DNA of 64,000 nt from Azolla caroliniana. Its lineage: Eukaryota > Plantae > Polypodiophyta. Location: positions 186,001 to 250,000 of the forward strand of contig JBHGNT010000034.1 of NCBI GenBank assembly GCA_043228905.1. Reading direction: 5' to 3'. Position 1 is the stretch's first letter, and the number at the start of each line of letters is the position of its first letter. Position numbers and translations under genes: made by a program. This document shows positions 19,300-64,000 of this stretch, piece after piece. Below the pieces are notes generated by a model, which was not told the origin of the DNA, ran no database searches, and saw only the letters and a list, made by a program, of their open reading frames with translations.

Positions 19300-20189
19300 A
19301 TATAATAAAGAAGGCTAGTAGAGTGAGTCTGATTTGTCTTGGGTGATTGATCTTCATGCATAAAGTTCTGAGGGATCTTCTTCATTTGTGCCTACATTTC
19401 CTCCCTTTCATCGGGTTTAGGTTCTTCCTCATAGTGTCTTTTGTCCCGCATGCTTTAAGAAGGTTCTATCATTAGGAATTGTTTCAAGAATCAACTACAT
19501 GACATGCCTTCACCTTGCAAAGTTGCACTCTTCCATTGCAAACATTCTCAAGGAATGTCTCTTTTCTCTTGTTAATGTCTTTCATTCCTTAACCCATGCA
19601 ACCTATATGGTGGGGTTACACCAATCGGTAGAAACACCCATTCTTCCGATTTTTTTCCAACCACACATAGAACATATGCAAGAGAATGCTTTGGCCATGT
19701 CTCTAAAGTAGATCGGAGAGTGTCAAGCTTTACTTCAATGTCGAGTAAATATTCCAACATGTGTGTGGAGAAAGATGCAAGCCTAGGGTAGGAGATTGAG
19801 TTTCAAGTTTTCATGGAAGAAACTCAGAGTAGCATGGGTAGAAAGAAACTAAAAATAATGAGCTTCAAAGGTTGTGACATTTCAAAGTCATAGATAGTTA
19901 TAATCTTTATTTTGTTCTTGTCCTCTTTACTGAAGGGATACCATTCAAAGGAAACTTCGAATCCGCACAAGCATGAAAGATAATCAAGAAGAACTAGTTT
20001 TTTTGTGCTAGATAATACCTTCACACTTCTGGCTATCATGGACTTTGTTTCTTTGAAGATTTTCACAAAGCCTAGGTTCAATAACATGTATAATAGCTTT
20101 TGCATGACATTATCATGTATTGTGGGAGATTACTACACTATACTCTCTAGCTTAATAAGAGCTCATATGACAATACTTGAATAATATTA

Positions 20190-30532: not shown

Positions 30533-30611
<79 letters not shown>

Positions 30612-33600
30612 AACATATGAAAATATTTGAGTGCGAGTTCATTGAAGACATCAAACAACCATATGTGAGCATAGACCTTACACAAGCACCCATGTACTTT
30701 AAGATGCTTGAGGATTTGGTAGAAATGACAAAGTTACAACATGGTGCAACACTAGAATTCGAACAAGTTGCCTAAGTTCATAAAGAAAGTAGGCATTGAA
30801 GGAATTGTCATCAATGATGTAGTCATCATGCTTTTGTTATATGCAAATGATGTGAGTCTTTTTGCAAATAGTTTACAAGATGCCCAAAAGCTTAACGGAA
30901 TATTAGGCATACTAAGCTACATGACGATAGCTTTAAAACAAAGATTAGGCCAAAATAAGGATAAACCATGCTTTATGTACAATAATACGCCACTTGAAAT
31001 TGTGGAAAGCTTTTAATATCTTGTCCTTGGAGTTCCCTCAAACATAGATGGAATGAATATGCTACCCACCACTTAAGAGGCAAGAAAGAGAGCATATTAT
31101 GCAATTGAGAATACATGTAGCTGTTGAAAAATTAGGTCCTCAAGAGATCCCTTTTCAACACTTTGCTAACATTGAGCTTTCCTATGGGATGAAAGTATGG
31201 GGCATTGGCATCCCTAAGTCCACTTGGAAAGAGTTTGAAAATGTCCAAAAGCATTTTCTTAGAGTGTTTATATAAGTCAAGTTACAAACGTGACATGCCC
31301 TCCTGTTTCTTGAGAAGGGTTGTTACGTATTTGGTTAAGGTTCAAAAAAGTCCCGTATGCCGACCTCCTAGAATCACATTGGAAGTAACCAAAAAGATCC
31401 AAAAGACACATAAAAACGAAACTTTGTATTCTATTTTGGTACAAGGTTGGGAAGATGGGATGCAGCCAATTGCTTCATGATACATCAATAGATTCTTTGT
31501 GAATGAGGCCTATCGCAAGACCAAAGTATCATGATATATGGGAAAAATACAAAAGCTCACACTTCACACATTATACTACATATGTTGCACCTATCTGCAA
31601 AAGCATATTCTTTGCCTAGGGAAACTCTACCTCCTTAAAGAATGTGCTTGATGTACCCCTTAATTTCTATGTTACTTGATCATATGGTAGAGATTCAAGA
31701 TCTCTGGGTTGTGTCTTACTTGTGGATTGCAGGTGGATTGAGCTTGTTGGCCATGGTTTGGCAAATTTACTAATAGTCTAGGGTAGCCTTTTATTTGAAT
31801 GCTCTAGGATTATGCTCAGTCGAGCAACTCATAACCATAATAAGTAAGAATGATTCCATGTGAACCTCATCATTTTGGAATCCAAGGGGAATTATTATTT
31901 CAAAATCTAGAAGTCTACCTAGCATCAGCAGTCTACTAGTTCATTCAAGAATGAACGAAATATAGAAAGAAGAGAAATGGACAATGATAAATATTACTTT
32001 GTAACAAGTGGAGATAATATCAACAGCTAGGTCAACATCTACACCTAGATTTAAAGCTACCCCCATCATCCCCTTCACTTTAACTTTCAATAGTTTACTG
32101 TGTTAAAAGAAGCACAAAACTTTGTTGCTAATCCTTTCCATACAAAGGTCATAACATTGCTATAAAGTTCACTTACAGGGGGTGGTGATTGATTTATGCC
32201 CACTGCTTTGTTATTGAAAATATTTGATCCTGACTTTGTGGTTTGATTCAGCCTTTCATCATTACCAACCATCATTTGTGACGACATTGTCACATTGTCA
32301 TCCTTAACAACTTCAGTTGGTTTTGTCCAAGCATTGGACTTTGACCATGGTGAATTTTTCCAGACAGACTCCTGACCAATCTTGGAGCTGAACCGTGACT
32401 TTTCAGGAGAAGTGGATGCACTTACTCCATAGACATCAGAATGTATCCGCCCTACAGGCTTCTCTGTTATGGAGATACCATTTTTCCCAACAAATGAACC
32501 ACCAGCTTTTAAGGATGGATTAGACCCATGCTTAGCAGCCTTCGTGAAATCAAACCTTGCCAAATAATCACTTGCAGACTTGGGTTTCAGTCCTTGATGC
32601 CTGAGGGTCTTTGAAACCTTCGCACTCTTCAACGATTCTGAAAGTTTTATCGACATACTTGTAAAATTGGTTTTTGAAGGAATTGATTCTTCACAGTCCT
32701 GTGCACCTACCCCAGAAACAGGGCAGGTTCCTTGATCTGCAGTTATTGGTTCAGTTTTCCCAACAATTCTTTCCTTCAACTTTTCTTTCCTTCGTCTTTC
32801 GGTCTCTCTAACCCTCCTCATTTCCCTCTCCTTTTCAGCTGCAGCTTCCTTTTCACTTTCTTTCTCAGTTTGTAATTTTTCCTCTCTCTGCCTTCTCCTT
32901 TCCTCGACCAGCCTTGTCACATCTTCCCGCTGCTTTCTCTCTTCTGCTTCTAGAAGCTCTTTCTCCAACCTTGCTTGCCTCTTTTCATCAGCCTTTCTGC
33001 GAGCTTTTTCACCCTTATCGGTGTGAATACTGCCCATCACATCCTTCAGTTTTTGGGAATGCTGAGAGCCATCACAGTTGTGCCTTCTTGACCCCCGAAC
33101 ATGATCCCATACAAATGCTATGCAGGAGAATATAGAACCTATCAGTGAAAATACTGCCAGAACACATTTCCACGCTCTGCAATGTTCAGATAGGTGAGTG
33201 TTTTCACCAAACCAAACACATCCTCTTCTCTCAGAAGCTTTGGACCAACAGCTCATTTCCCGTTTCAATGGGCCTCTGATCAAGATTGTTCCTGGACCAT
33301 GTATGACCTGTGCGGTAGAATAAATCGCAGATTGAGGCAGTCCTTGACCTGCCAAATGCGGAACCTCTAAGACTGGTCGTTTAGAAACATGCCCACAGAC
33401 AGTGCACGTGAATTTCCCACCACCAGGTGTCTGAACCTTATAGGCCGTGAAACAGTTTCTGCATCGGCGGGTCGCTTCTTTCCTCCATTTCGCTGCTTCT
33501 TGGGCCTCAATGAGCTTTCTCTCTCTCAACAGAGCATTTCTCCGTGCTCTCCAAGAAGACAACCATGGCATGAGCAGTTCATACCAAGCAAGGCTGCTTA

Positions 33601-41175: not shown

Positions 41176-44100
41176 TCATGTTGTTCGCCATAAGAATGGT
41201 ACTGGTGGCGGGAACAACCAAGGAGGTGGCACATAATTCCACCTAACCTCCGTGCCTGCATCTAACATTATAGGAATAGCTGACCAAACTCGTCGTAATC
41301 TCTTTCTTTTTCGAATGGTTGTGTTTCCATAGCCTTTATACCTGTCATACTCACCTTTAACCGAATGTACTAATAAATTCCAAAAAGACTTTACTTGATC
41401 CACAACGTGAATGTCTTCATCATTGTATAACTTGGAGCACCTCGCTTTCCAAAGAACCCATAGAGACAACGAGGAGACAATCTACCAAACATAACTCCGC
41501 GAGAAGAACTTGACTCCCTGCAAGGATCTCGAAGTAGAATATACCTGAAAACTTCTTACATATAAAGACAATGAAGAATGATTATAATGATAAAAAGCCC
41601 TTTGTTGATCCAACATTCCCCAAAAGACTGCACCCCACGTAAAAATAGCAGACCTATACTTACGACCTAGAAGCCTAAGAATTCAACACCAAAAACTTTT
41701 TGCGGAAACACATTCCCAAAATGCATGATGCAATGTCTCATCCGCAAACCCACACATAATACATGACCAATTACTCACTGATCCCCTCAATAAATGACCT
41801 GCATAATGAATCATCAACCACCGAAAATGCAATATCTTATTCATGCATTTAATAGACCAAAGCTGTTTCCAAAACATAACCATATGAGTAGATGAAACAT
41901 TACCTTCCTCCCAATACTTTTTTCCAGCAGGTATCGGCTCGGTCTGCCTCAACATAAAATTCCTGCCAAACGCTACTGAATATTTGAAAAAAGGAAGGAG
42001 TTTAGTCGAAGAGTCAGATATGGATAATTTCCAACCATAATCCGTTGGATCCCACTGCAGGTCATCAATACGTTTAGAGTCTAACACCGAAATATGAGAT
42101 GAAAAATTAACTATTAGTGGACTAGGATCGATACATATATTTTTATCTAATCTAGCAATTACTCGCACTGGCAATTGCTTCACAGCCAACATGATTTGAG
42201 ACTCCTCATCCACTAGTATCAACCTACCATTGTCCAACACTTCATAAAAATAAATGCTACCATTTTGATCATATAACCGAGCTCCTATAAGTATATTAAG
42301 TGTCAAGAACATACCGTACCAACTCTGAAAATGATCGAATTGAAATGTAGGCACTGTGACCTGATACACCCTGGACAATTGTGATAACATGATCTTAGCC
42401 CCTCTTAAGTTAGATAACCTATTACTTTGCTCCAGCGTAGAGGACTGCATAAACCTTATCCAATCCGCAACCGTACGAGCTGGTCCACTATCCATTGCAG
42501 CCCATGATAACCTAGGGCGTAAACCCAAAACACATGCAACTTCATCGGTAAATAAAGGATTCCATATCAATTGTTGACGCATAAATTGATGATAGCTTTT
42601 CGGTGGCAAGAAAACAAGCGCTTGCCGAAGAGTTTCCCATGCCCGAAAAATTCCATTGAAGAAACGCAATGATCCATCATTAGACTTAGGTAGCTGGAAA
42701 TCTGCATTAAAGAACCATCTAAGACTATCCTTCCATTGACCACCTACCGAAGGCTTGACCTTATATAGATGTTGCATCCATAGCTTTTTCCATAACTCCT
42801 CTCATGGCAATAAACTCCTAACAACATGTTTAGTAAGTAAAGCTTTGCTTTGCATAAATGGATCAATCAAACCTAAACCACCTTTTTGTTTAGGTTGTAT
42901 CAGAATAGACCAAGCTACATTTGCTACAGGATTGACTAACCTATTGTTCCCCCAAATAAAATTCCGTACTAAACGTTGAACTTTCAACATTATTGACCTA
43001 GAAAACAGCCATGTAGATGCTATATACCAAATCGAGGACAACAACACCGCATTAGCTACAACTACACGTCCTGCTAAAGATAATTTTTCTTTATTCCAAT
43101 ATACTAATTTATTTCTTAATCTTAACAATAAGGGTGCAATCATATCTTCTGACTTTAATCCCACACCCACTCGACAACCCAAATACCTAATGGACTGACC
43201 TTGAGGTATCCATGTGAATCCTAAAGAGGGTACATTAACTGGCGGATCTCCCGAAGCGACCCAAAAACCTGATGACTTATCCCAATTTATCAATGCACCT
43301 GATGCATCTGAGAAATCATCCACGGCCTTTTGCATATGAAACAAATTACCATGTGAGGCCTGAACATATAAAGCTGTATCATCAGCGAATTCACAATCCA
43401 CATTTGCGTTTGCTACTGGTAGTGCTAAACCTTTAATATTTACATATGGAGAATTTAAATGTATAGATAATGCTTCGGATACTAACAAAAACTGGAAAGG
43501 AGCAAGTGGACATCCCTGGCATACAGATCTTGAAATAAAAAAACGCCTACCAATGTCCCTTGCAAATAATAGAGAACTACTTGCATTACGATATAATGCT
43601 GAAACTCCTCGTATCCAATTACTTGGAAAACCCATCCTAACGAGTGTTCCCTCCATAAAATCCCAGTCCACTCTGTCGTAAGCTTTTTCAAAATCAAGAA
43701 ATAACACCGCCAGATCTTGCTTCTGCACTTCAGCGATGGTCACCATTTCCCAAAAGAGAATAATATTATCAAAAATACTTCGCTCTTGCAAAAAACCTGT
43801 CTCGGTATCATGAATCAACTCCGAAAGATAAGGTTGTAACCGTCTAGCTATCGTTTTTGCTAATATCTTATAAATAACATTCAACAAGGTAATTGGTCTC
43901 CACTGGCTAAGCTCTTCTAACTGTCCACTTGTTTTAGGAATCATATAGATTAAACCCTCCTTCCATTCTTGGGGCATATTTCCAGAATCTAAAATTTGTT
44001 GATAGGCCTTAGTCAGCCCATCACCTATCAAATCCCAATACTGGATATACCATTGAACTCCCAGGCCATCCACACCAGGACAAACATCCTTTGCAAGGGC

Positions 44101-44578
44101 TTTTATTGCTTTAAAAACCTATTGAGTACTTAATGGTTGTAAAAGACAACGTAAAAGATTTCCAGAAACCCTATTCTGAACCCTAGACCATATAATGTCC
44201 CTCTTAACCATATCAACCTCAGAAAATGGTCTAGCTTTTAACAAAGCTTCATAATAATCAGAGGCTATTTGTCGCATCTGGCTAGGATCCGTGGTATAAG
44301 AGCCATCAGGACATCTTATATAAGTAGGTAGGCTGCGTAGGGGATTGAAATCCCTGCAACATTTGCAAGAGAGAAGACCACATTCGAGTTATATAAGTGC
44401 TCGAGTGGTTCAAGTAGGGAATCAAATATTGGACTTACAAAAGATTTCTGTTGATTTTAACTATCACAATACATCATCCACATGGGCAGAATCGGGAGAT
44501 AAAGTCAACAAGTTGTTCTTTGCAGTGCATAATCATCATAAGTCATCAGCTAGGATATCTAGATTGAGGTGCCGATAA
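41176..44578 (-). mobile_element. 5'-truncated L1-type LINE with inverted 5' segment
   Basis: RT WRPITLLNVIYKILAK, LDFEKAYDRVDW, QGCPLAP, EFADDT; C-terminal CIMCGFADETLHHAFWEC knuckle and SLWVLWKAR; 44320-44578 encodes the preceding ORF2 segment on the + strand. Confidence 0.95.
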
Positions 44579-49741: not shown

Positions 49742-52464
49742 GGCTTCTTGTGGTGTTACATGGGCTTGCAAAGACGAGGTCATGCCGTATTCACTGTCAT
49801 TCGAAGGAATTGCACTCTTTGCATGTAGGATCCTTTTTTCTATTCCATTGTCAAGTTTGATTGTTGATGGATGCAATGCAATTACAAGGCGCTAATTGCT
49901 TTTTTATCGTGCACACATGATGATTCATGGGTGATCGATGGGGCACATTAGATTTTGGTGGGTGCCACTGCCATTTTATGCTCTTAGCATATCCAATAGC
50001 TAAGACGTGAAAGGGGACAACTATCGCTAATCTTGTATTAGTGTCACATTAACTATGACATCATCTTGAAAAATATAGTATTGTTTCTATGTATTGTTAG
50101 CCGCATTCTTACAATTAAAGAACAGAAGTTTGAGTTAGTATATTCCAGGAGGAAATTAAGATCCAGAAGATGGTTCCAACAGAGCTATATATCTCAAATG
50201 GTTTTGTTTGGTTTGCAGCTTCCTCATGCATGTGTACAAATCTTATTTGATCAGCTATTGTTAGTTGCTGTGCTTATTTGCTTCTAGAGACTGAGCCCTG
50301 GCAACTAAATAATTGTCCATTACTGGTTCCTATCAAATGAATTATCAATACTAGGTATTATGTCAGAATGGTAGGCACTGTATTTATGTTTATGGGCTAA
50401 GGCAAGGTGCCATCCTGTTAGTCAATGCTCGGCATAATTCTTCTCTTTGTTTTAGACTCTTAGGAGAAACAATCAAGTCCCATAAAGATAGGGATGTACA
50501 TTACTGTCAGTGAGATTCCACTCATTATTTTGATGTCAGGTTATGAATGTTCAGTTTTAAAGCGTGCGGCAGCATTTGATATGTTTCTTTGGTGTAAGCA
50601 AGCATTTGGCATGCTATGATTATGGTCAAATTTTGTAGGTTTTACGCATCTAAGTTGTTAAATCATCTCTACTGGTTGATGCGTTAGTATTGATTGTCAT
50701 TCGTTTGATGAGGGGTTGATAAGTACCTCCCATCCCCATTCTATCTGATAACTAGCTCCCTTCTCATTCCGTGTGCAGGATTTTTGTAGTTCCTTGTGAT
50801 GTGTTGGTGGGATTCTTCTTTTGCACTAACAACAATTGAGAAGGCCCTCCTAGTCTTCCCCTCTTACTAGAATCATCTAACCACCAACAATTATCGCTAC
50901 CATTATCGTCCTAGATTAGGTGATTGGTAAATAATCTACCAATGTGCTTATCATATTTGCATTACAATACTTCAAAGGGATGGAAGAAGTCTCTATCAAT
51001 TTGTCTCTAGTTGACAGAAAATATTTCTTATTGATGTGGAATTGAGTTTCAACTTGAGCTTTTCCCCCTAAACAGGAATGGCAAAATCTTTCATATGTTA
51101 TCTATTAGTTATCTTACAAAAGGAAGGTTTACAGGTGCTGAAAACAGGGTATATCGATTAAATGAAGGTTTTCCCTCTTTGGGGATCTCCAAGCCCGCGT
51201 GCAAATAGGGATTATTCATGTGGTTAAAGCAAAACTCCTTTGTATAAAAAAGCTTGAACACACACCAAATCCAAACTTATACAGTTAGAGTGATATTGCA
51301 TTTACAAACTAGCCGTTGTGAGAAGCCATTCCTAAAGTGCAAGGTTGTTTGAATGAGTAATCTCATTTTTAGGTGTCTTTGTCTCTTTTGTACATGTACA
51401 TTTATTCATGTGGCTGAAAGTTAATTCTGTACTGTGTACTTCAATGTAACAATGAAGGAAACTTTTTATGGTTAATTGATGGTATATTTCCAAACTTTTA
51501 ATTGTAAAATCCCTCTACCCAACAATGATATCTCTAAAGCTTAGTCATGATGCTATATAACTAAAGGAGTGTTAGTGGTCAAATGGAATGTATGTTATTT
51601 GGTAATAGGTCAAAAATGTAAAATGATAGGGTACATTTAGTGGGTAGTTGGGTAGGAAGTAAACACACCTTTCAAGCATTTGTAAATTGCCCTTTATGGG
51701 TAAGAATTCCATCATTGCCATGGAAGACTTTCATAGAATACGTCTCATGTTCAACAAGTCTCCGAAGAAGTCAATGGTGCGTGACAAATTAAATTGACAT
51801 CCATGGCATAATTATTTGATTGAAACCATATTCATTCCCTGGTTTTTGGGGACTTCAATGGGCTCCTTGTTCATACATCCCTTTTAATGCATGTAATGTA
51901 CCACCTAAAGTTACATGTTTTCAGATCAAGATTGAAACTCTTAACATTATGTACTCAAAGCAATTCGGAAAGCCCAATGCATTCCTCACCATCCATCACC
52001 CACGCCCCCTTCCTCCAAAAACTTTGGATAGTATGATGAGCATATATAGTCAAGGAATTAAATCAGTCATATTAAAACATCCGTGCAACACATGTGAAGT
52101 GTAGCTCGTAGCATGCACACTCACAAAATTTGCTGAATTTACATCATGTGTCCACGGCCATCCCACCCCCTTCCTCTCTTGTTTTGTTATTCGGTGTTTG
52201 TGTTTGAAATCTGTTCCCATCCTATTTTGGTCATGGAAACCAACCGGGACTTTTAACTGCTTCTGCTGCTACTCCAAACCTTCCAAAGTCTCTTTCGTGT
52301 CAATGGAAGGATCTTAATGATAATCTCATACCCAGAAACTAAAACCTGTCGAAGATGTGAAGCGACACAGGAGACAGAGGAAACAGAGGGAGCGAAGATC
52401 GTCGCCCATCGCCACCTGTTTTTTCATTTTCTCTACCAGAAGTTTCCGATACCGCTTAGGCTTC

Positions 52465-54446
52465 ATGTCTGTTAGCCTCACTTGCTCTCAAGGTCTTCTT
52501 GACATCGAGCTTTTCACAGAAGACGCTCCCAGGTACTACATCTACTTCTCTCCCCCTCCCTCTCAGGTTTGTCCTTCAAAATGTCAGAGCTTTCTAAATC
52601 CATGCATGAAAATGGTCTTATTAATGGAGTCCAACTTGAAACATGAAGGGACAAAGTCCCGCACATAGCGTTAAAGCATTCATTTTGTATGAAAACTTGA
52701 AATCCAAAGATCACAATGATTCTGGTATTCTTCAGATTTCAGTGTCTACAGAGACAACGACATTACATGCAAAGAATTAGAGGATCTCAACATAAACTAG
52801 CTGTGCATCCACACAAGCATTCATTTTGTATGAAAACTTGAAATCTGAAGATCACAACGATCCTGGGAATCTTCAGATTTCAGTGGCTACAGAGACAATG
52901 ACATTCCATTTAACGAAGTAGAGGATCCCGACATAAACTAGATGTGCATCCACACAATGATGGCGCATTTCTAATGACAATCTCTTCATCCTGACAAATT
53001 TTCCTCTCTATTTTTTTGTAGAACTTGCAGAAACTTTATCGAGCTTTGTAAATCTGGCTATTATGATGGCATAACCTTCCATGTAAGTGTTTACTGATGT
53101 TTCTTCCTTCTCATCAAATATTCTGTTTATCGAGATGTTATACATTCAGAAATTCTCAGATATCTGCAAGGATATGATTACAATGCAGTTGTCAATGCCT
53201 ACAACCTGTACATTTTTCCAAATTTTAGGTTTAAATATTTATAAATGCAACATATCTGACAATAGAACTTTGCTCTAAACATTCTATACATACTCTGGTG
53301 TCTTCTCATAATGTAATATTATTTCATGCATATTGTTCACATGTATTGCGAATTATCATTTATAAGGATTATGCCTTTATGTGTATATGTGCATATGTGC
53401 ATATGCATAAATATTTGTACTCATGCATGCAAAAAACAGACTTTGAAGCTTTTATGCATATACGTTTTGTAACACATGATCTGTTGATGCTTATAAATTC
53501 CCACATATTGTGCATTTGCAATTATGAGAATGCCTCTATCCAGATGCACATGCATCTATTTTGGTATTCATGAACAAATACTAGCTCTAAAGTTATGCAC
53601 ATGAACCTAATCATAGGCACTCATTCAGTATAACACTAATTTGTGGATTGGGGTTCTTGGAAAGTCAAAGATTAGGCAGAACCGTATGACATTCTACCAA
53701 ATTTCTATAAATGTGTGGTATTTTGCCAATATTTTCTTGCTGTCTTATTCATGAAGAAGAAGTTTGATCTTTTGGTAACATTACGCTTCTTTGAACACTG
53801 TACGATATACACCCAAAATATGACTTGTTTTGTTGTCATGCTAGCAGAGAATAGTTCCTGGTTTTATGTGCCAAAGTGGTGATCCAACAGGCACAGGGAA
53901 AGGTGGATTCTCCATTTATGGTCCAATTTTTGGGGATGAAATCTCTGCGAGACAGAGTCATGACAGGAAAGGAATCGTGTCTATGGCTAATTCGGGAAGG
54001 AATACCAACTCTTCTCAGTTTTTCATAATATTCAATCCTGTAAGACTAGTTGGCATTGCGGCAATAATGTCTTTGTTTTGTTATAGACTATAAGTATCAT
54101 TTCATTTTTGTTTTTGTTTCAGAGCCCACATTTAGATGGAAAGCACACAATTTTTGGCAAAGTGAAGAGGCATTCACTTCATGTTCTAGACAAAATGCAG
54201 CTTGTCACATTGAAGAAATTTCAGCCAGTCCAACCTGTGAAACTGTAAGTTCTCGAATTGAATAGAGAGGATTTAATTCAGTGTTTTTGTGCAGTTTCCT
54301 TTTCTGTATTTAATGATATGTGGATGTGCAGTTATGTTGCAGAGGTTATTGTTGATCCATGGGAAGGCCAACAACTCCCCTACGGTGCTTCAATCCCTGT
54401 AAAGCCCCTCATAACACCCACGACTTGTACATGTACAATTCAATAA
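52465..54446 (+). CDS. Single-domain cyclophilin-type peptidyl-prolyl isomerase (PPIL1/PPIL3-like), 185 aa, 5 exons
   Basis: Exons 52465-52532, 53022-53082, 53848-54039, 54123-54244, 54332-54446 in frame: [43 protein letters not shown]...[16 protein letters not shown]...[12 protein letters not shown]. Confidence 0.92.
52674..52957. repeat. 141-bp tandem duplication in cyclophilin intron 1
   Basis: AAGCATTCATTTTGTATGAAAACTTGAAATC at 52674 and 52815; copies moderately diverged. Confidence 0.9.
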
Positions 54447-55202
54447 GTTTTTAGGACCTGGTACTCTTACATTGTTTATTCAGAGGCCAAACACTGTCTT
54501 CTTCTATGTAAACTTTTAACATATATCATAATATGTTTGCTGACATATATTATGGCTTTCAACCCAATGTTGTGAGTTGTGACAATAGTTATGACTTTGG
54601 TAATGGTGTCTGTGTAAAAATTTCCGTGAGAAACAGCTATCCTTGAATGCCGTTGCATTCATGATTGAAAGTCTCAATATTATTTCTAAATTTATGTGGC
54701 TTTACAAACTCTCTTTCACAAAGTATTCAAAGTGATAGCTAGGCAAGATCCTCTTCACAGCTCACCTTACTACAAGAGGTGCATTTATAAGTCTCTGGAA
54801 TTTAAGTAATACTAGCAGCAATTGAATGTACACCATATGTACCAATTATACGTCTTTTAATTGTAATCATTTTAATTCAGAATTATCCAGGGAATTCAGA
54901 CCATTCAAAATAATTGATGCCCTCCTAATTGTACATGTTTTTATCTTCAACTAGATGGAAACAAATCTTGGCCAACAATCTTCTAGCAAGGTTGCCCTTT
55001 CCTCTAACTGCACTGTGAATTTTGCTTACCAAGCTTTATGGAAAAGCTCACTATTCACATCTTGAATAAAAGTATCATGCGTCTTATTCCTTTTTTATTA
55101 TCTATTCCCATTGAATTTCTATGCTCAAAAAGCAATAAAATAAAAAGGTTAGAAATCATTGAGGTAAATTCACTTTGATACTATTTAAAAGGTATAAGTT
55201 GA

Positions 55203-55230
55203 TTTAGGGTTTAGGGTTTGGTTTGAGTTT
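55203..55230 (+). repeat. Short TTTAGGG tract with degenerate continuation
   Basis: TTTAGGG TTTAGGG TTTGG TTTGAG TTT. Confidence 0.7.
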
Positions 55231-55407
55231 TTGATGTGCGACAATAAGATGATAGACGATAAACTTTGATGACGGTAAGAGAGAGTGGGAAGGTTTTGAA
55301 CCAACAAGTGACTCAAACATATTGAGTTATTTATTAATGCATCAATACAAATCAAATTGAGACAGAGAATTTAAAAATCAAATGATAAATTTGCTAGTGT
55401 GTGTAAT

Positions 55408-55447
55408 TCCAAACTAGTTTCGCTCTATCAAAGAGCCCTTTAATGGA
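55408..55447 (-). ncRNA. Decayed minimal type I hammerhead ribozyme-like motif
   Basis: Minus strand TCCA-ttaaagg-GCTCT-ttgat-AGAGC-GAAAC-TA-GTT-TGGA. Stems I and II are perfect and GAAAC is intact; the CTGANGA box has 3 mismatches. Confidence 0.55.
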
Positions 55448-56246
55448 GGATATTGATTTTGTGAATATAATTTTCAAGTTTTACATCTCTTATATGGGCA
55501 GTCCTACAATTGATTACATTTCCTTTAAAAAATGTTTATAATACATTATTAGGTACCCCTTACAACTTTAAATTCTATTTTTTTAGACATTTAAAAAGGG
55601 TTAAGCATGTCCATTTTTGAGGATCATATATGTGATGTCTCGTATAATCAGACATGTTTTCCGTTTCTTGATTTAATATTAAATTTGTCATTCATACATG
55701 CCACTTTCTTGGTTTGGCCATCTAATCATTCTTGACCATTGTTCTTTGATTAAAGTTGTCTTGAATTGGCGTGGGCAAAGCGAGAAAAGGCAACAAAGGT
55801 AGGTTTCATGATATCTCAAGAATCTTGACAAAGAAATGACTAGATGAAGGAGTGCTAGATAGACTAGTGATAGGTCAAATAGTTTGAGCTAGCTGTTGTT
55901 AATGCAAAGACTTAGGGTTCAACAATGATTGGGGTTTGTTGGAAGATGAAAACGAGGTTACAAAGGGCAAATATGGATAAATGGTCAAACACACTAGTAA
56001 TACTTTAGGTCAAAGCTAGGAGCCCATACATAAAGAAATATCTAATGACATTATCGATCCCAAGCACCCATGTGGAAAGGGAAGTGCATTGACAGAGAAA
56101 ATGAGTGGTACATTTCAGTCACAATATGAGATTCAAGGGTTATGTAATGTGATGTTTTACGATATTTGATGAGGAAGAGAGAAAACTACAAATCAATGAG
56201 TGAGGGAAATTGAAGGGTATGAACATTTTAGTCACAATATGAGATT

Positions 56247-58891
56247 AAAATGTTCATAGCTGCATCGTGTGATATCAGATTTTTGTGTTGAAACATGCGA
56301 ATCCAAGCTAACAACGCTAGCTATAATATGGATTTGAAAAATTATGATTTTGAAACTTAGGTCGAGAGACATGAAGAAAAAAAGCAATTTTGAGGTGGGT
56401 GTAGACAAGAGCGCATAAGTAAATGAAAATGTTCATACCTGGCTCGTGTGATATCAGATTTTTGTGTTCAAACAAATGAATCAAAGCTAACAATGCTAGC
56501 TATGACAAAGAATTGAAAAATCAAGATTTTCAAACTCAGGTCGAGAGACATGAAGAAAAAGCCAAAGTTGAGGAGGGCGTAGACAAGAGCGCGCGAGTAA
56601 ATGAAAATGTTCATACCTAGCTCGTGTGATATCGGATTTTTGTGTTCAAACATGCGAATCGAAGCTACCAATGCTAGCTATGACAGAGAATTGAAAAATC
56701 ATGATTTTGAAACTCAGGTCGAGAGACATGAAGAAAAAAGCAAAGATGAGGAGGGCGTAGACAAGAGCGCGTGAGTAAATGAAAATGTTCATAGCTACAT
56801 CGTGTGATGTCAGATTTTTGTATTGAAACATGCAAATCCAAGCTAACAACGCTAGATATAATATGGATTTGAAAAATTATGATTTTGAAAGTCAAGTCGA
56901 GAGACATGAAGAAAAACCCAAAGTTGAGGAGGGCGTAGGCAAGAGCGTGTGACTACATGAAAATGTTCATACCTGGCTCGTGTGATATCGGATTTTTGTG
57001 TTCAAACATACGAATCGAAGCTAATGACACACTCTATAATATGGAATTAAAAAATAATGATTTTGAAACTTAGGTCGAGAGACATGAAGGAAACATCAAA
57101 GTTGAGGACCGTGTAGACGAGCGTGTGAGTAAATGAAAATGTTCATAGCTGGGTCGTGTGGTATCAGATTTTTGTGTTCAAACATGTGAATCGAAACTAA
57201 TGACACGTTCATAGCTGGCTCGTCTGATATCGAATTTTTGTGTTCGAACCTGCGAATCGAAACTAATGACACTCTATAATATGGAATTAAAAAATAATGA
57301 TTTTGAAACTCAGGTCGAAAGAAATGAAGAAAAAAGCAAAGTTGAGGAGGGCGTAGACAAGAACGTTTGAGTAAATGAAACTGTTCATACATGGCTCGTG
57401 TGATATCCGATTTTTGTGTTCAAACATGCGAATCGAAGCTAATAACAGACTCTATAATATGGAATATAAAATTCATGATTTTGAAACTCAGGTTGAGAGA
57501 CAGGAAGAAAAAAGCAAAGTTAAGGAGTGCGTAGAGAAGAGCGTGTGAGTAAATGAAAATGTTCATACCTGGTTTGTGTGATATCGGATTTTTGTGTTCA
57601 AACATGTGAATCGAAGCTAATGACACACTCTATAATATGGAATAGGAAAATAATGATTTTGAAACTCAGGTCGAGAGATAGGAAGAAAAAAGAAAAGTTG
57701 AGGAGGATGTAGACAAGAGCGTGTGAGTAAAGAAAAATGTTCATAATTGGCCTGTGTGATATTGGATTTTTGTTTTCAAACGTGCGGATGAAAGCTAAGG
57801 ACACACTCTATAATATAGAATTAAAAATTAATGGTTTTGAAACTCAGGTGGAGAGACATGAACAGAAAAACAAAGTTGAGGAGGTCGTAGACAAGAGCCT
57901 GTGAGTAAATGAAAATGTTCATAGCTGGCCTGTGTGATATCAGACTTTTGTGTTCAAATAAGCGAATCGAAGCTAATGACACACTCCATAATATGGAATT
58001 AAAAAATAATGATTTGGAAACCCAAGTCGAGAGACATGAAGAAAAAAGCAAAGTTGAGGAGGGCGTAGACAAGAACGTTTGAGTAAATGAAAATGTTCAT
58101 ACCTGGCTCGTGTGATATCGGATTTTTGTGTTCAAACATGCGAATCGAAGCTAATAACACACTCTATAATATGAAATATAAAAATAATGATTTTAAAACT
58201 TAGGTCGAGAGACATGAACCGAAAAGCAAAGTTGAGGAGGTTGTAGACAAGAGCGTGTGAGTAAATCAAAATGTTCATAGCTGGCCTGTGTGATATCAGA
58301 TTTTTGTGGTCAAACAAGCGAATCGAAGCTAATGACACAGTCTATTATTTTCAATTAAAAAATAATGATTTTGAAACCCAAGTCGAAAGAAATGAAGAAA
58401 GAAGCAAAGTTGAGGAGGGTGTAGACAAGAACGTTTGAGTAAATGAAAATGTTCATACCTGGCTCATGTTATATCGGATTTTTGTGTTCAAACATGAGAA
58501 TTGAAGCTAATAACACACTCTATGATATGGAATTAAAAAATAATGATTTTGAAACCCAAGTCGAGAGACATGAAGAAGAAAACAAAGTTGAAGAGGGCGT
58601 AGACAAGAACGTTTGAGTAAATGAAAATGTTCATACTTGGTTCGTGTGATATCGGATTTGTGTGTTCAAATATGTGAATCGAAGCTAATGACAAACTCTA
58701 TAATATGGAATAGGAAAATTATGAGTTTGAAACTCAGGTTGAGAGACAGGGAGAAAAAAGAAAAGTTGAGGAGGATGTAGACAAGAGCGTGTGAGTAAAG
58801 AAAAATGTTCATAATTTGCTCGTGTGATATCGGATTTTTGTTTTCAAATGTGCGGATCAAAGCTAATGACACACTCTATAATAAAGAATTA
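56247..58891. repeat. 178-bp satellite array, left part (~15 monomers)
   Basis: Monomer AAAATGTTCATAC/GCTGGCTCGTGTGATATCGGATTTTTGTGTTCAAAC...GTAGACAAGAGCGTGTGAGTAAATG recurs every 178 bp. Confidence 0.98.
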
Positions 58892-58982
58892 TTGTCAACT
58901 GTTGGGTCGTTACAAGGAGTGCGAGCGACGTAGTAATAGGGTAGATAATCTAATAGGAAGAAAATATATTGTGAGTACCAAG

Positions 58983-59024
<42 letters not shown>

Positions 59025-59052
59025 CAAGAAAATATCATTAGAATGAAAAGAA

Positions 59053-59109
59053 AGACCTTATGCAGCAAACTAGTTTCGCTCAAGAATGAGCTCATTAGTC
59101 CAAAGGTCT
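59053..59109 (-). ncRNA. Minimal type I hammerhead ribozyme (core variant CTAATGA) in PLE 3' UTR
   Basis: Minus strand AGACCTT-tgga-CTAATGA-GCTCA-ttct-TGAGC-GAAAC-TA-GTT-tgctgcat-AAGGTCT: stem II, GAAAC, palindromic mini stem III (AACTAGTT) and extended stem I. Confidence 0.8.
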
Positions 59110-59393
59110 ATTACAATATGGGTGTAGCTTTATATAAGGTGGGGGAGGTGGGAGAGGGAGAGGGAGAGAGGAGAAATAAGAGTTAGTGATGGGAGAGAGA
59201 AGAAGGGGGTAATGGTAGGTAGTTGAATGATACAAAGTAAGTGGTGGTGGGCTAAGAAGAGTGGAGGGTTATAAGTATGTGTATGCTAAGTAATAAGTGG
59301 GGGTGGGCTATGAAAAGTGGGAGATTATGGTAAGTAATAAGTGGGGGTGTGTTATGCATAAGTGGGGGGTTATAAGTAAGTAAATGTGTAGTG

Positions 59394-60717
59394 TTAAGTA
59401 AGAGATTTTGGGGATGACCTTTTATATTTAGTTTTGACCAAAAAAGAGTGAATGGAGTTGGATTTAGTCCAACACACAAAAGGTCTAGGTATCTGAGATA
59501 GTTTGGGATCTAAGAGTAAATCCTCGTGGAGGTTTTTTAGCATGTCATGAATTCCTATCTTAGGGGTATCTTGTGTATATCTAAGTTTGAAGATAACGGG
59601 TAGAAGAGTACTTTTGGGTTTCCTACTATATATTAGTGATTTCCTAACCCTAAAGGGGACATTTTTATAATTCTCTTTTATGAAAGAAGGGGGATATCCT
59701 CTCGTAATTAGTCTAGTAAAAAATAGTTTTTTCATTCGACGGAAACCTAAAGGAGTGCTTTCTCTAATTAGGTATCGTTTTAGTTCATTAATAATAAAAT
59801 GTCTTTTTAAATGAAGGGGGTGTTCTGACGAGAACGGGAGATATTGGTAAGCATTTTGGGGCTTTTGGTAGCAATTAAAGAAGAATTTAGAGTTTTCTAG
59901 GTTAATCCATAAGTCTAGGAAGGGTAATCTAGAGGGGGAAGTGGTGATGGTAAGTTTGATACAATTATTAGTAGAGGTATTATAGAATTGAAGGTAATTT
60001 TCTAACTCGAGTTTAGTACCCGTCCATATTCCGAAAGCGTCATCTATATATCTAGTGAAAAAGCAAAGATTTGGGTGTGGTGGTTGCGAATTCTCTAAGT
60101 GAGCTAAGAAAAGGCAAGCATATACTACAGAAAAATTACTACCCATGGTTGTACCCTTTACTTGTTAATAAATTACGTTGTCAAAAGAGAGAAAGTGATA
60201 TTCTAATGTGAGTGCGCTAAGTGTATAAATAAGGTTAGTTTTAGAAGTTGAAAAATAGGGGGTAATGATTTTTCGTAAGGCTTCTAGACCTAGCTTAGGA
60301 GGGATGCTAGGATATAAGGATTCAACATCAAAGGTAAAGATAAAGCTATTAGGGGGTGGTTTAAGATGTTCTAGAGTTTGGATAAGGGAGTGTGAGTCTT
60401 TCAAATTCTTTAAGTAGGATAAGTGGTGGAGGTGGGGAAGCTGGGAGGATGTGTTTCAAACCTAGGTTGAGGAGTTGTGTCTCGTGTTTGGAGAGGGTAT
60501 AATCAGAGTGATTGTGTATCCTACTACTAATTACAGGTTTCCTAAGGAGGGGAGTCCAAAATTTGGTTCGTGGTTTTTTAGTATTTGACTTTTTAGTGTG
60601 TGATTTAGTGTAAGGGGAGAAGGGGAAACGAGAGTTTGTTCTACCTAGCCACATGTAGGTATCACAAGTTAAGAGGGGCCTATCTAGTATGTAAAAGAGA
60701 CGCTTACAAGGGTGCAA
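59394..60717 (-). pseudogene. Penelope-like reverse transcriptase (disrupted), no GIY-YIG domain
   Basis: IHNHSDYTLSKHETQLLNLGLKH (PLE N-terminal motif); FTFDVESLYPSIP; Y*QVKGTTMGS; FTRYIDDAFGIW; LPFLDL; YQKP...YLPFSSEHP; RGYP; stop at 59394. Deletion/frameshift at ~60400 and in-frame stop at 60165. Confidence 0.92.
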
Positions 60718-60932
60718 GGCGTGCTTAAAACGTTTACTAATTCGTTTAGCATGCCTCGCTACCTGTTTTTTGGTCTACATGTATATGACCGAGTTTTAGT
60801 TTGGGGGTGAGGGGGGGGGTTTGTAAGAGCTATGGGGGTTTGATTTATTATATGGGTGTGTGGTAGGGGCAAACGAGTTAGAATTAGGAAAAAGGGGAGG
60901 GGTATTATATGTAAATAGGGAGGGGTTATTTT

Positions 60933-63038
60933 TCAAATTATGTGAGAAAAAGGGGGGGGTGCATGTGTGGAATTATTAAGAAAGGAGAGGGAGTGTGTAA
61001 AGATATTAGGGGGGGAGGGGGCTGTGTTAGAAATAGGGGGAGGGGTAAGACCAGAATTATACAAAGTGTTGGGGGGGAAATATGGATGGGGGTCATTACA
61101 AAAAGGGGGAAGGGGGTTAGGTTGGGGAATATTAGAAAGTAATGGAGGGGTATACGAGGAATTTGCAGAAAATGTGGGAGGGTTTTGAGAGTGAAAGGGG
61201 TGTGGGTGTAGTGGCCATGAATAAGGAAAGGGGGATGGGTTATACTGCCCTATTGTAGGAGGAGGGAAAGAAAATTGAGGGGCAAAGGAGGAGGGATGAG
61301 AGGCTTTGAGGGGCTCAGTATACAGAGGAGGGTTGGAGAGCAAGGGGGGAAGGTGAGAATGGGGGAGGTCGACGCCTCTATAGTCGACTGTACGCGCCGA
61401 GTCGAGAACACCGCCGCCCGTCCTTAGCTTTAATCTATCGTGTTGTTGGTGGTTGTGTAGGGCCGACGAGAAACCAACAGGAGCGGCCGATGAGTGGAAA
61501 GTATGGATCAAAGATGGGGGTACTCCGTGTGAGTTGTGTGGCCAAGCTAGCATATGGTGGTTGATGTCACCGCTGCCGCCGCCGTTGTTGCCGTAGCCGT
61601 AGCCGCCTCCACCACCAAAAAGTTGTGATGGTCGATGATGGAGATCCTGTGGTGGATGATGCGATGGACCTGTATAAGGGGAAACATATGTGGTGAAGTT
61701 GGAGTTCGGGAATGTTGGTGTTATCCTCGTGTTATGGTGGAGGTGGGCTGAGTTTGTGTTCGGGCCTATCGAAAGGCCATTGGGTCTATAGAATAATACT
61801 TTTGGGTTTCTATGATTGAGGTTGTTCGGATAAGGGTTCATGCTAACTTCATTATTATTTATGTTGCAGATGAATTGAGGATGGTTGTGGTGGTTGGATG
61901 ATCCACGTTTAATTTGTGGTGGAGGAGGCTTCGGGTTTGTTGTTCGAGGCCAAGGGTTAGGGTTGGGGTCGGTTCTCAAGTTAGGGTTAGGGTTTGTTTT
62001 GAAATTAGTGTTAGGGTTAGGGTTTGTTTTGAAATTAGGGTTAGGGTTAGGGCCAGGGTTTATTCTCGAGTTAGGGTTAGGGTTAGGGTTTATTCTAGAG
62101 TTAGGGTTGGGGTTAGGGTTTGTTCTCGAGTTAGGCTTAGGGTTTTTTTTCGAGTTAGGGTTAGGGTTTGTTCTCAAGTTAAGGTTATTGTGATGAGATG
62201 TAAACTGAAATTTGTCATATTGTGCTTTCTCAAAACTATCTACTACCTTTTCACTATCATCTTCAATATCATCTTCAGATTCCATATCTAGGTCTATCTC
62301 TCTAATATGGTGCTTGGTTGTGCTTTGAGTGTTGTCGTTTATTAATTGTGCTTTATCTCTTCTTTGCATTGCAGCCGTTCTAAAGGCTTCCTTATAAGTG
62401 AATGATAGAGCTATTGTATTACATTCTTTTAAAATATTAGTGGCTAATTCTTCTCTGAAATCTTCAAGTTGTTTGCTAAATGAGTTAGGGTTTGAATCGG
62501 GTTCTATTATGTCAAAACAAGCGGGGGCTTTTAGGAGATTAGCAAGCTTGAGTATATCTGTTCGCATGATTGTGGGAAAGTCATCTACAATTTTAGTATA
62601 ATAATGCACAAGGCTGTCTAAATGCTTAACATATGCGGTAGTGAGATCTTTACTATATTGTGTTGTAATGGAAGCAAACTCTAGCTGTAAACTTTTATTA
62701 ATATCTTCGTGTTTGATAACTAGTCTAGGGGGTTGGATTCTCAAGCCATGAGGGGCTATATTATGCGAATTTAGGTTTGACATATGAGTGTATGTTCTTT
62801 TTGCTTTTTGTGCTTTTTGATAGAGGCTTTTAAACTCTGCTATTATTCTACACTTGTAATCTTCAATGTGTTGGGAAATTAGCGGTGATTCATTGGAGAT
62901 TACCTGGGTACTCGTAGTTTTTGGGGGGGTTGGAGAAGTCGAAATTATTGGAGCTCGTGGTCTTTTGGTTGGACGTTTGTTGGCGCTTCTAGGTTTTGTA
63001 GGAGTAGGTGTGGTGGAAGTAGCTGCCGCAAAAGTCAT
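60933..63038 (-). CDS. PLE ORF1-like protein (~701 aa): basic N-terminus, helical domain, NP-repeat tract, His/Pro-rich low-complexity tail
   Basis: Open frame from ATG 63038 (MTFAAATS...); KRPTKRPR basic motif; APHGLRI (PxGLR-like) motif; directly upstream of the PLE RT on the same strand. Confidence 0.7.
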   Translation of the reverse strand: MTFAAATSTTPTPTKPRSANKRPTKRPRAPIISTSPTPPKTTSTQVISNESPLISQHIEDYKCRIIAEFKSLYQKAQKAKRTYTHMSNLNSHNIAPHGLRIQPPRLVIKHEDINKSLQLEFASITTQYSKDLTTAYVKHLDSLVHYYTKIVDDFPTIMRTDILKLANLLKAPACFDIIEPDSNPNSFSKQLEDFREELATNILKECNTIALSFTYKEAFRTAAMQRRDKAQLINDNTQSTTKHHIREIDLDMESEDDIEDDSEKVVDSFEKAQYDKFQFTSHHNNLNLRTNPNPNSKKNPKPNSRTNPNPNPNSRINPNPNPNSRINPGPNPNPNFKTNPNPNTNFKTNPNPNLRTDPNPNPWPRTTNPKPPPPQIKRGSSNHHNHPQFICNINNNEVSMNPYPNNLNHRNPKVLFYRPNGLSIGPNTNSAHLHHNTRITPTFPNSNFTTYVSPYTGPSHHPPQDLHHRPSQLFGGGGGYGYGNNGGGSGDINHHMLAWPHNSHGVPPSLIHTFHSSAAPVGFSSALHNHQQHDRLKLRTGGGVLDSARTVDYRGVDLPHSHLPPLLSNPPLYTEPLKASHPSSFAPQFSFPPPTIGQYNPSPFPYSWPLHPHPFHSQNPPTFSANSSYTPPLLSNIPQPNPLPPFCNDPHPYFPPNTLYNSGLTPPPISNTAPSPPNIFTHSLSFLNNSTHAPPPFSHII
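61953..62186 (+). repeat. Interrupted (TTAGGG)n telomere-like repeat blocks inside ORF1
   Basis: About 9 blocks of 24-30 bp such as GTTAGGGTTAGGGTTTGTTCTCGA; translated on the minus strand as TNPNPN(PN)SR/FK. Confidence 0.93.
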
Positions 63039-63042
63039 CAAC

Positions 63043-64000
63043 TGTGATATCGGATTTTTGTGTTCAAACAAGAGAATCGAAGCTAATGACACACTCTATT
63101 ATTTGCAATTAAAAAATAATGATTTTGAAACCCAAGTGGAGAGACATGAAGAAAAAAGCAAAGTTGAGGAGGGCGTAGACAAGAACGTTTGAGTAAATGA
63201 AAATGTTCATACCTGGCTCATGTTATATCGGATTTTTGTGTTCAAACATGCGAATCGAAGCTAGCAACACACTCTATAAAATGGAATATAAAAATAATGA
63301 TTTTGAAACTCAGGTTGAGAGACAAGAAGAAAAAAGCAAAGTTAAGGAGTGCTTAGAGAAGAGCGTGTGAGTAAATGAAAATGTTCATACCTGGCTCGTG
63401 TGATATAGGACTTTTGTGTTCAAACATGTGAATCGAAGCTAATGACACACTCTATAATATGAAATTAAAAAATAATGATTTTGAAACCCAAGTCGAGAGA
63501 CATGAAGAAAAAAACAAAGTTGAGGAGGGCGTAGACAAGAACGTTTGAGTAAATGAAAATGTTCATAATTTGCCCGTTGGTTATCGGGTTTTTGTTTTCA
63601 AACGTGCGAATCGAAGCTAATGACACACTCTATAATATAGAATTAAAAAATAATGATTTTAAACTCAGATCGAGAGACATGAACAGAAAAGCAAAGTTGA
63701 GGAGGTTGTAGACAAGAGCGTGTGAGCAAATGAAAATGTTCATAGCTGGCCTATGTGATATCCAATTTTTGTGTTCAAACAAGCGAATCGAAGCTAATGA
63801 CACAATCTATTATGTGCAATTAAAAAATAATGATTTTGAAACCCAAGTCGAGAGACATGAAGAAAAAAGAAAAGTTGAGGAGGGCGTAGACAAGAACGTT
63901 TGAGTAAATGAAAATGTTCATACCTGGCTCATGTCATATCGGATTTTTGTGTTCAAACATGCAAATCGAAGCTAACAACAGACTCTATAATATGGAATAT
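63043..64000. repeat. 178-bp satellite array, right part (runs off the window)
   Basis: Same monomer and orientation as 56247-58891. Confidence 0.98.

What the first reader, a model, noticed from the sequence alone, without database searches (positions are those of the whole stretch)
59053..59109. Minimal type I hammerhead ribozyme in the element's 3' UTR
Seen: a 5-bp stem II (GCTCA/TGAGC), GAAAC, a palindromic two-base-loop stem III (AACTAGTT) and a 7-bp outer stem I (AGACCTT/AAGGTCT). The core reads CTAATGA instead of CTGATGA. Established: PLEs carry minimal hammerheads that can cleave as dimers, and G5A kills catalysis. Inference: this copy was inactivated by a C-to-T change in a CAG (CHG) context on the + strand; active family members should have CTGATGA.
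Basis: partly seen in the sequence, partly recalled or inferred. Interest (0 to 1): 0.8.

Follow-up and report, generated by a model that had tools for sequence, protein, structure and literature searches.

The report
Dead hammerhead in fern Penelope retroelement
This is a twice-mutated, likely dead copy of a conserved and likely self-cutting RNA motif (hammerhead) in a broken jumping gene of a fern-like plant; the kind is already known from a spikemoss, so the locus is mostly ordinary.

Summary
The motif is real and reads on the minus strand (59109-59053). In three public DNA runs every contig covering the core reads CTGATGA, and near-identical sister copies are intact. Across 36 unique family sequences the stems covary. 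G5A fits methylation decay: C>T at CHG 16 of 123 sites against CHH 17 of 1420. 'Minimal' and '3' UTR' are imprecise: it has a 2-bp palindromic helix III, and the region is a pseudo-LTR with a TATA box 36-39 nt before the core, leading into the next unit's ORF1. The host element is a broken two-ORF, endonuclease-less Penelope-like retroelement in a clade with Selaginella, Ginkgo and Cryptomeria RTs. Insertions tend to end just after a second conserved motif downstream of the hammerhead, not at its cut site. Cleavage is untested. The scan found this family before on another piece of this genome (e1-10619883). Verdict: new member of a known kind.

The parts
59053..59109 (-). Type I hammerhead motif, decayed: distal stem I 59109-59103 with 59059-59053; core CTAATGA 59098-59092; stem II 59091-59087 with 59082-59078; GAAA; 2-bp stem III with TA loop 59074-59069; GUU triplet, predicted cut between 59068 and 59067; proximal 3' arm TGC 59067-59065
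59096..59096 (-). Lesion 1: core G5 is A (C>T in CAG on the + strand)
59100..59100 (-). Lesion 2: proximal stem I position 2.2 is G where sisters have C, so the pair is lost
59129..59136 (-). TATA-like box TATATAAA, 38 nt before C3; a TATA-like hexamer lies 36-39 nt before C3 in 58 of 87 matches (background 2.35%); promoter function inferred
58985..59022 (-). (TC)19 tract of the leader, also in sisters L033, L069, L043
58897..58923 (-). Conserved motif CGCACTCCTTG (58923-58913) followed by a small GAC..GTY hairpin (58908-58897); candidate signal for the start of reverse transcription
58889..58889 (-). 3' junction with the satellite, 24 nt after the motif; sisters run on into the next unit's ORF1
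59394..60774 (-). ORF2, Penelope-type reverse transcriptase without a GIY-YIG domain; broken by a 623-nt deletion near 60391-60404 and a premature stop at 60165-60167
60933..63040 (-). ORF1 with Asn-Pro repeats; 5'-truncated by about 36 codons and ends early against sisters
60765..60773 (-). ORF1/ORF2 overlap with a conserved A-run (CCAAAAAAC), a likely -1 frameshift site
56247..58891 (.). 178-bp satellite array, 3' flank; the same satellite resumes at 63043-63999; no target-site duplication seen
55396..55457 (-). Second, more decayed hammerhead of a related family (core TTAAAGG; stems TCCA/TGGA and GCTCT/AGAGC), like L062 and L042
   Evidence: (31.1 bits, E 5.9e-07)

Best explanation
The locus is a twice-mutated, likely dead copy of a conserved type I hammerhead in the pseudo-LTR of a broken two-ORF, endonuclease-less Penelope-like retroelement of a likely fern. 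Shown: intact sisters, covarying stems, head-to-tail tandems, a TATA box at fixed distance before the core, no endonuclease domain. Inferred: intact copies would cut their RNA after GUU, likely as a double hammerhead in which two palindromic ACUAGU stretches pair, and likely with help from the element's protein; the cut would fall about 40 nt after the predicted transcription start and so trim tandem transcripts into units; reverse transcription likely starts inside the RNA, just past a second motif 120-730 nt downstream of the cut, so the cut does not set the 3' end of insertions. This copy likely entered a break in a satellite array and then decayed; G5A likely came from deamination of a methylated CHG cytosine.
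For: Core and stem I intact in all depth of 3 of 3 DNA runs, laid without selecting for the core. L080 differs at 4 of 359 bases, two of them the lesions. In 36 unique sequences (from 62 of 87 matches kept for TATA or same-strand RT): proximal stem I pair 3 is GC 30, CG 2, TA 1, GT 1, unpaired 2; stem II pair 3 is TA 23, CG 13; N7 is T 31, A 3, C 2; distal stem I has 6 or more pairs in 31 of 36, against 30% of non-cognate and 3% of shuffled arm pairs. On 24 sequences 99.5% of cells pair and 0 of 500 shuffles reach the covariation score. Tandems and ORF layout. RT clade with Selaginella, Ginkgo, Cryptomeria, SH-aLRT 99. Ends: 10 of 40 breaks fall 18-39 nt after the motif and none of the 62 kept matches loses its stem I 3' arm at the cut site. 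L004 runs from its own C-rich repeat into (TAAACCC)n to the contig end. Internal RT start downstream of the hammerhead and protein-assisted cleavage are shown for an endonuclease-bearing PLE (PMC11167929, parts 1-2 of 4 read). Mutation spectrum.
Against: No cleavage was measured. Predicted folding does not favour the active form: in 12 of 12 intact sisters the double-hammerhead model lies 3.0-24.2 kcal/mol above the dimer minimum, and the monomers prefer pairings that tie up the core. The proximal stem I is only 3-4 bp and the triplet is GUU. RNA reads from 3 poly(A) libraries give depth near 1 or less at the motif and no pile of ends at the cut site (too thin to count either way). 26 of the 36 informative breaks lie elsewhere, 9 of them between hammerhead and motif. 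Most loci come from one set of assemblies, so they are related, not independent. In the anole PLE, hammerhead mutants did not reduce insertion in vitro. No read or contig showed the window's own two letters (contigs drop rare variants).
Confidence: 0.75

Rival explanations
1. The family motif is kept as a folded signal (promoter-proximal structure or protein-binding site) and cleaves little or not at all in the cell.
For: Active fold is not the predicted minimum in 12 of 12 sisters; low in vitro activity of PLE hammerheads (PMC4209133, parts 1-2 of 4); cleavage not needed for insertion in vitro in another PLE; insertion ends do not map to the cut site.
Against: Unselected contigs keep the catalytic letters while loops and arms vary; variation inside the core is at N7, the free position; all three helices and the NUH register are kept.
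Confidence: 0.13
2. The two differences are errors of the window's assembly and this genomic copy has an intact hammerhead.
For: No laid contig shows the window's letters at 59096 or 59100; 2 of only 4 differences from L080 fall within 5 bases.
Against: The copy has 117 private changes in 4152 positions with a methylation-type spectrum, a stop codon and a 623-nt deletion at a 6-nt microhomology, so about 1.6 changes are expected in 57 bases anyway; single-copy alleles are dropped from contigs.
Confidence: 0.05
3. The two changes arose in one templated event (template switch or conversion), not by separate deamination and transversion.
For: Together they create TTGGACTAA, which also occurs 370 bases away at the end of ORF2 (59464-59472), and they lie 4 bases apart.
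Against: Noticed after the fact, only 9 bases; CHG sites change at 13% in this copy, so G5A needs no special cause; the second relic lost the same site.
Confidence: 0.07

Closest known systems
Telomere-associated endonuclease-less PLEs of Selaginella moellendorffii with type I hammerheads in their pseudo-LTRs (PMC4209133; PMC8557442)
   Same: RT relative at 37% identity over 85% of ORF2, same supported clade, no GIY-YIG, hammerhead in the pseudo-LTR, small palindromic helix III, C-rich telomere-like repeats near the 3' end in several families.
   Different: Host is likely a fern (best named host-gene hit Adiantum); proximal helix I is 3-4 bp plus a distal helix, not 6 bp; no conserved loop letters for a tertiary contact were seen; this copy sits in a satellite among genes.
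Drosophila virilis Penelope hammerhead variant (PMC4209133)
   Same: [quoted passage not shown]
   Different: That variant has a bulge in helix II and an extra base at its 5' end, and the element has an endonuclease.
min-HHR of animal PLEs (PMC4209133)
   Same: Type I, in pseudo-LTRs, dimer-dependent by design.
   Different: min-HHR has no helix III, a 7-8 bp helix II and an unpaired base after A9; none of these holds here.
Poseidon of Anolis carolinensis, PAc (PMC11167929)
   Same: Insertion ends lie downstream of the hammerhead near an AC-rich stem-loop, not at the cut site.
   Different: PAc is a single-ORF element with an endonuclease and was tested in vitro; here the start site is inferred from junctions only.
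Athena/Terminon elements of bdelloid rotifers (seen only through passages of PMC8557442 and PMC12477314)
   Same: Endonuclease-less, ORF1 separated from RT by a frameshift, tandem chains, C-rich repeats plus hammerhead.
   Different: Here the C-rich repeats lie 120-500 nt downstream of the hammerhead and only in some families; the window's own family mostly lacks them.

Membership tests
Type I hammerhead ribozyme | CUGANGA core | tested here: not met
   Window copy reads CTAATGA. Met in the family: all depth in 3 of 3 DNA runs.
Type I hammerhead ribozyme | GAAA and NUH triplet in register with stem III | tested here: met
   GAAAC TA GT T, triplet GUU. The collection search fixed these letters, so their conservation there is not a test.
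Type I hammerhead ribozyme | Stem II with G10.1-C11.1 and covariation | tested here: met
   5 bp in the window; pair 3 TA 23, CG 13 of 36.
Type I hammerhead ribozyme | Stem I closes the core and holds both ends | tested here: not met
   1 proximal pair in the window, 3 in 12 of 12 sisters folded; met in the family, 34 of 36 with three pairs.
Type I hammerhead ribozyme | Self-cleavage at the NUH site | not testable with these tools
   Needs a bench assay; RNA depth at the motif too low.
Type I hammerhead ribozyme | Tertiary contact between loops of stems I and II | tested here: inconclusive
   Both loops vary in length and sequence in alignment A1; no structure computed.
min-HHR of animal PLEs (PMC4209133) | No helix III, helix II 7-8 bp, extra base between positions 9 and 10.1 | tested here: not met
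   2-bp helix III, 4-6 bp helix II, no extra base (definition).
Penelope-like elements | PLE-type RT with the DKG-region motif | tested here: met
   Intact sisters have ADKN and core RT motifs; the window copy has lost that stretch in its deletion. Pfam copy on hand gave no family for the sister ORF2; the precomputed list gives PF00078.
Penelope-like elements | Tandem or partial-tandem units forming pseudo-LTRs that hold the hammerhead | tested here: met
   L033, L043, L056, L060, L069 and others; 27 of 42 motif instances run on into an ORF1 start.
Endonuclease-less PLEs (Coprina/Athena type) | No GIY-YIG endonuclease | tested here: met
   ORF2 ends after the thumb region in window and sisters; no PF01541 in the 30 best relatives other than P0211, which falls outside the clade.
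Endonuclease-less PLEs (Coprina/Athena type) | Attachment to telomeric repeats | tested here: inconclusive
   L004 ends in (TAAACCC)n; C-rich repeats downstream of the hammerhead in L002, L005, L031, L043, L053. The window copy lies in a satellite; no chromosome position is available.
Coprina clade in the strict sense | RT groups with named fungal Coprina sequences | not tested
   No named Coprina or Athena reference was in the tree.

The most novel reading that the evidence does not exclude
Land-plant endonuclease-less PLEs run on a three-part RNA leader: a TATA-positioned hammerhead at the very start of the transcript that removes the cap and cuts tandems into units that can circularise, and a separate motif-plus-hairpin that starts the telomerase-like RT inside the RNA, giving one-turn or longer copies. 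The core's own CTG is a symmetric CHG site, so host methylation would work as a built-in kill switch: the window copy, the relic at 55.4 kb and one loose-end consensus each lost C3 or G5 by a transition there.
Probability: 0.3. Interest if true: 0.55.

Novelty: new member of a known kind. Interest (0 to 1): 0.3.

Why it matters
The locus itself is a dead copy. The family is useful: it extends hammerhead-bearing endonuclease-less PLEs from spikemoss to a likely fern, with RT relatives in Ginkgo and Cryptomeria, and supplies dozens of natural variants with covarying stems and intact two-ORF units. That makes an open question testable in a plant system: what PLE hammerheads do, given that cleavage was dispensable for insertion in the one PLE tested in vitro (PMC11167929).

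Tried and rejected
Rfam at E up to 10 over 50000-64000: no hammerhead family. No whole genome held, so no copy count or chromosome position. Pfam gave nothing for the window's RT pieces or the sister ORF2. No RNA holder listed for the stretch. RNA reads at the motif: 2 reads of one pair and depth near 1 or less; not used as evidence. Searches used a mis-indexed structure; those results and model R1 were discarded and redone. The idea that ACAGTTGA shared by both junctions marks the unit boundary was dropped: sisters have 113 further bases there. The idea that 58889 is a fixed family end was dropped: sisters continue. The first breakpoint count (12 of 15 usable) looked only near the motif and was biased; the wider count replaces it. 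25 of 87 pattern matches were left out of the covariation counts for lacking TATA and same-strand RT nearby; they include other hammerhead-like families and probable chance hits. The careful tree did not finish; the quick tree is reported. Paper searches for fern PLE hammerheads found no description: 'hammerhead, Penelope-like, fern' (8 listed), 'Penelope, fern genome, telomer, Coprina' with 3 of 4 terms (4 listed), 'Penelope, Azolla, retrotransposon'; the library lacks most subscription papers. The Terminon paper was not held.

Full report
Observation. The stretch 59053-59109 reads on the minus strand as a 7-bp outer helix, the core CTAATGA, a 5-bp stem II, GAAAC, a TA loop, GTT and the partner arm. 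By itself the motif is only modestly beyond chance: my descriptor finds 1 hit in the window and at least 1 in 4 of 100 Markov controls. Rfam reports no hammerhead family in 50000-64000. The family evidence below settles it.

Sister copies, unselected. Contigs of three public DNA runs (organisms A, B, C as coded) were laid on 58840-59440 at 80% likeness. At 59096 all depth reads C on the + strand (450.4 of 450.4, 844.4 of 844.4, 325.4 of 325.4; 5, 5 and 2 contigs), which gives CTGATGA. At 59100 all depth reads G on the + strand, which gives GCA before the core and a 3-bp helix with TGC after the cut site. Loose ends show related families with CTGACGA and other loops. The table omitted 17 further rows. 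No contig showed the window's own letters; contigs drop rare variants, so this is not evidence of an error, but it is not a confirmation either.

Sister copies, by pattern. One scan of the metagenome collection with the core and the stem III side fixed, and stem I free, gave 87 matches in 86 loci. L080 matches the window at 355 of 359 bases; two of the four differences are the lesions. I kept 62 of 87 matches that have a TATA-like box 30-42 nt upstream or a same-strand RT nearby (36 unique sequences) and left out 25. In the 36: proximal stem I pairs 1 and 2 pair in 36 of 36, pair 3 in 34 of 36 (GC 30, CG 2, TA 1, GT 1); stem II pair 3 is TA 23 or CG 13; N7 is T 31, A 3, C 2; a distal helix of 6 or more pairs forms in 31 of 36 cognate arm pairs, 30% of non-cognate pairs and 3% of shuffles. 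On an alignment of 24 sequences that excludes the nearest sisters, 99.5% of cells pair, 14 cells change on both sides, and 0 of 500 shuffles reach the covariation score; relatedness inflates this, as most loci come from one set of assemblies. A model from that alignment scores the window motif 46.8 bits and a second relic at 55396-55457 31.1 bits; the next hit is 12.9 bits. The pattern fixed the core, so only one search tests core conservation.

The element. The motif lies about 290 nt after the stop of a reverse transcriptase ORF on the minus strand. Intact sisters have ORF1 of about 740-870 codons (stop to stop) and ORF2 of about 660, overlapping at a conserved A-run, a likely -1 frameshift. 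ORF2 has the ADKN motif and ends without a GIY-YIG domain. Named relatives are from Selaginella, Ginkgo and Cryptomeria, and these form one clade with the window RT in a quick tree of 54 proteins (SH-aLRT 99; no named Coprina or Athena included). A host gene of the window has its best named hit in Adiantum, so the host is likely a fern. The window copy spans about 63040-58889, lacks the first ~36 codons of ORF1, ends ORF1 early, has a 623-nt deletion in ORF2 at a 6-nt microhomology and a premature stop at 60165-60167. It interrupts a 178-bp satellite without a target duplication.

Position of the hammerhead. Sisters are head-to-tail tandems: ORF2, TATA box, hammerhead, pyrimidine tract, a conserved motif with a small hairpin, then the ORF1 start. 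A TATA-like hexamer lies 36-39 nt before C3 in 58 of 87 matches, against 2.35% for random positions. With the usual plant spacing of about 30 nt (recalled), transcription would start at or within the 5' arm of stem I. The '3' UTR' is thus a pseudo-LTR and the leader of the next unit, as described for PLEs in general (PMC8557442 passages; PMC6765202 passages).

Where copies end. None of the 62 kept matches loses its stem I 3' arm at the cut site. Of 63 instances (62 plus the window), 40 leave shared sequence within 1500 nt; 4 of these had no usable partner. Of the other 36, 10 break 18-39 nt after the conserved motif, including the window at +24; 9 break between hammerhead and motif; the rest break further on. 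So the motif marks a preferred, not exclusive, end. L004 leaves its own C-rich repeat and runs into (TAAACCC)n to the contig end, as expected for priming at a telomere. This parallels the anole PLE, where reverse transcription starts inside the RNA in an AC-rich stem-loop downstream of the hammerhead, cleavage needs protein and is not needed for insertion in vitro (PMC11167929, parts 1-2 of 4).

How it decayed. Against close sisters the copy has 117 private changes in 4152 positions: C>T at CG 17 of 188 sites, at CHG 16 of 123, at CHH 17 of 1420 (direction is taken from sister agreement, not from an outgroup). The core's CTG is a symmetric CHG site: the relic at 55.4 kb has both C3T and G5A, and one loose-end consensus of 3 contigs shows C3T. 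The change at 59100 is a transversion and needs another cause. It raises the gap between the active-like monomer and the minimum from 4.9 to 8.3 kcal/mol and weakens the double-hammerhead model from -34.2 to -24.0 kcal/mol against L080. G5A abolishes cleavage in an engineered hammerhead (PMC4027429 passages).

Against activity. In 12 of 12 intact sisters folded, the double-hammerhead model is 3.0-24.2 kcal/mol above the dimer minimum (my model omits extra pairs in the loops). Three poly(A) libraries of organism C, about an eighth of each read, give depth 0.5-3 of apparent sense reads over part of the RT, depth near 1 or less at the motif, and no pile of ends there. Cleavage therefore remains inferred.

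Comparison with what is known. PMC4209133 (parts 1-2 of 4 read; figures and supplements not seen) reports type I hammerheads in the pseudo-LTRs of telomere-associated PLEs of Selaginella, defines canonical animal-type motifs by a 1-2 bp helix III with a palindromic loop that works as a dimer, and defines min-HHR as lacking helix III. The present motif has the 2-bp palindromic helix III and a short proximal helix I, so it works like the canonical dimer type and resembles the D. virilis variant; it is not a min-HHR. The window copy fails two membership features of an active hammerhead; the family meets all that could be tested. Three searches found no paper on fern PLE hammerheads, within a library that lacks most subscription journals. 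The scan's own notes hold the same family on another piece of this genome (e1-10619883), read after my analysis; this is not independent support.

Verdict. A real, twice-broken hammerhead in a dead copy of a fern-like plant's endonuclease-less PLE: new member of a known kind, interest 0.3.

Noticed in passing
window 55396-55457 (-): Second decayed hammerhead of the L062/L042 family with about 125 nt of matching flank; no RT remnant nearby.
   Followed up: partly
window 61299-62300 (+): In 3 of 3 poly(A) libraries of organism C, reads cover the middle of ORF1 with a GT..AG joint 61740-61868 on the + strand (33, 39, 18 reads): a spliced transcript antisense to the element, from some sister copy.
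   Followed up: no
window 60765-60773 (-) and 20 sites in sister loci: Conserved A-run at the ORF1/ORF2 overlap, a likely -1 frameshift site; no downstream structure examined.
   Followed up: partly
L055, L056, L043: Mosaic tandems: the hammerhead and leader of one family are followed by ORF1 of another, and ORF1 and ORF2 of one unit differ in closeness to the window.
   Followed up: no
L075:2809-3076 and L042:1-165: Two of 86 loci also contain the window's 178-bp satellite; in L075 an element ends in it 21-24 nt after the motif. The satellite is very abundant, so no targeting is implied.
   Followed up: partly
window 61953-62187: ORF1 Asn-Pro repeats are encoded by AACCCT-type, telomere-like units.
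   Followed up: no
L001, L011, L018, L036, L071, L082; L006, L015, L066, L079: Two other hammerhead-like families with the same ACTAGT palindrome from other assemblies; the second lies 1.1-1.3 kb from an RT 29% identical to this one.
   Followed up: no
P0197, P0201, P0204 (Cryptomeria), P0010 (Ginkgo): Gymnosperm proteins of the same endonuclease-less RT clade, named only as uncharacterized; their hammerheads could not be checked.
   Followed up: no
window 59464-59472: The 9-mer created by the two hammerhead lesions also occurs here, at the end of ORF2.
   Followed up: partly
window 1835-5938, 17266-19314, 29608-30771, 41683-44118, 53845-54093: Copia polyprotein with an open frame of 1367 codons, PPR gene, U-box gene, LINE-like RT, cyclophilin exon.
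   Followed up: no
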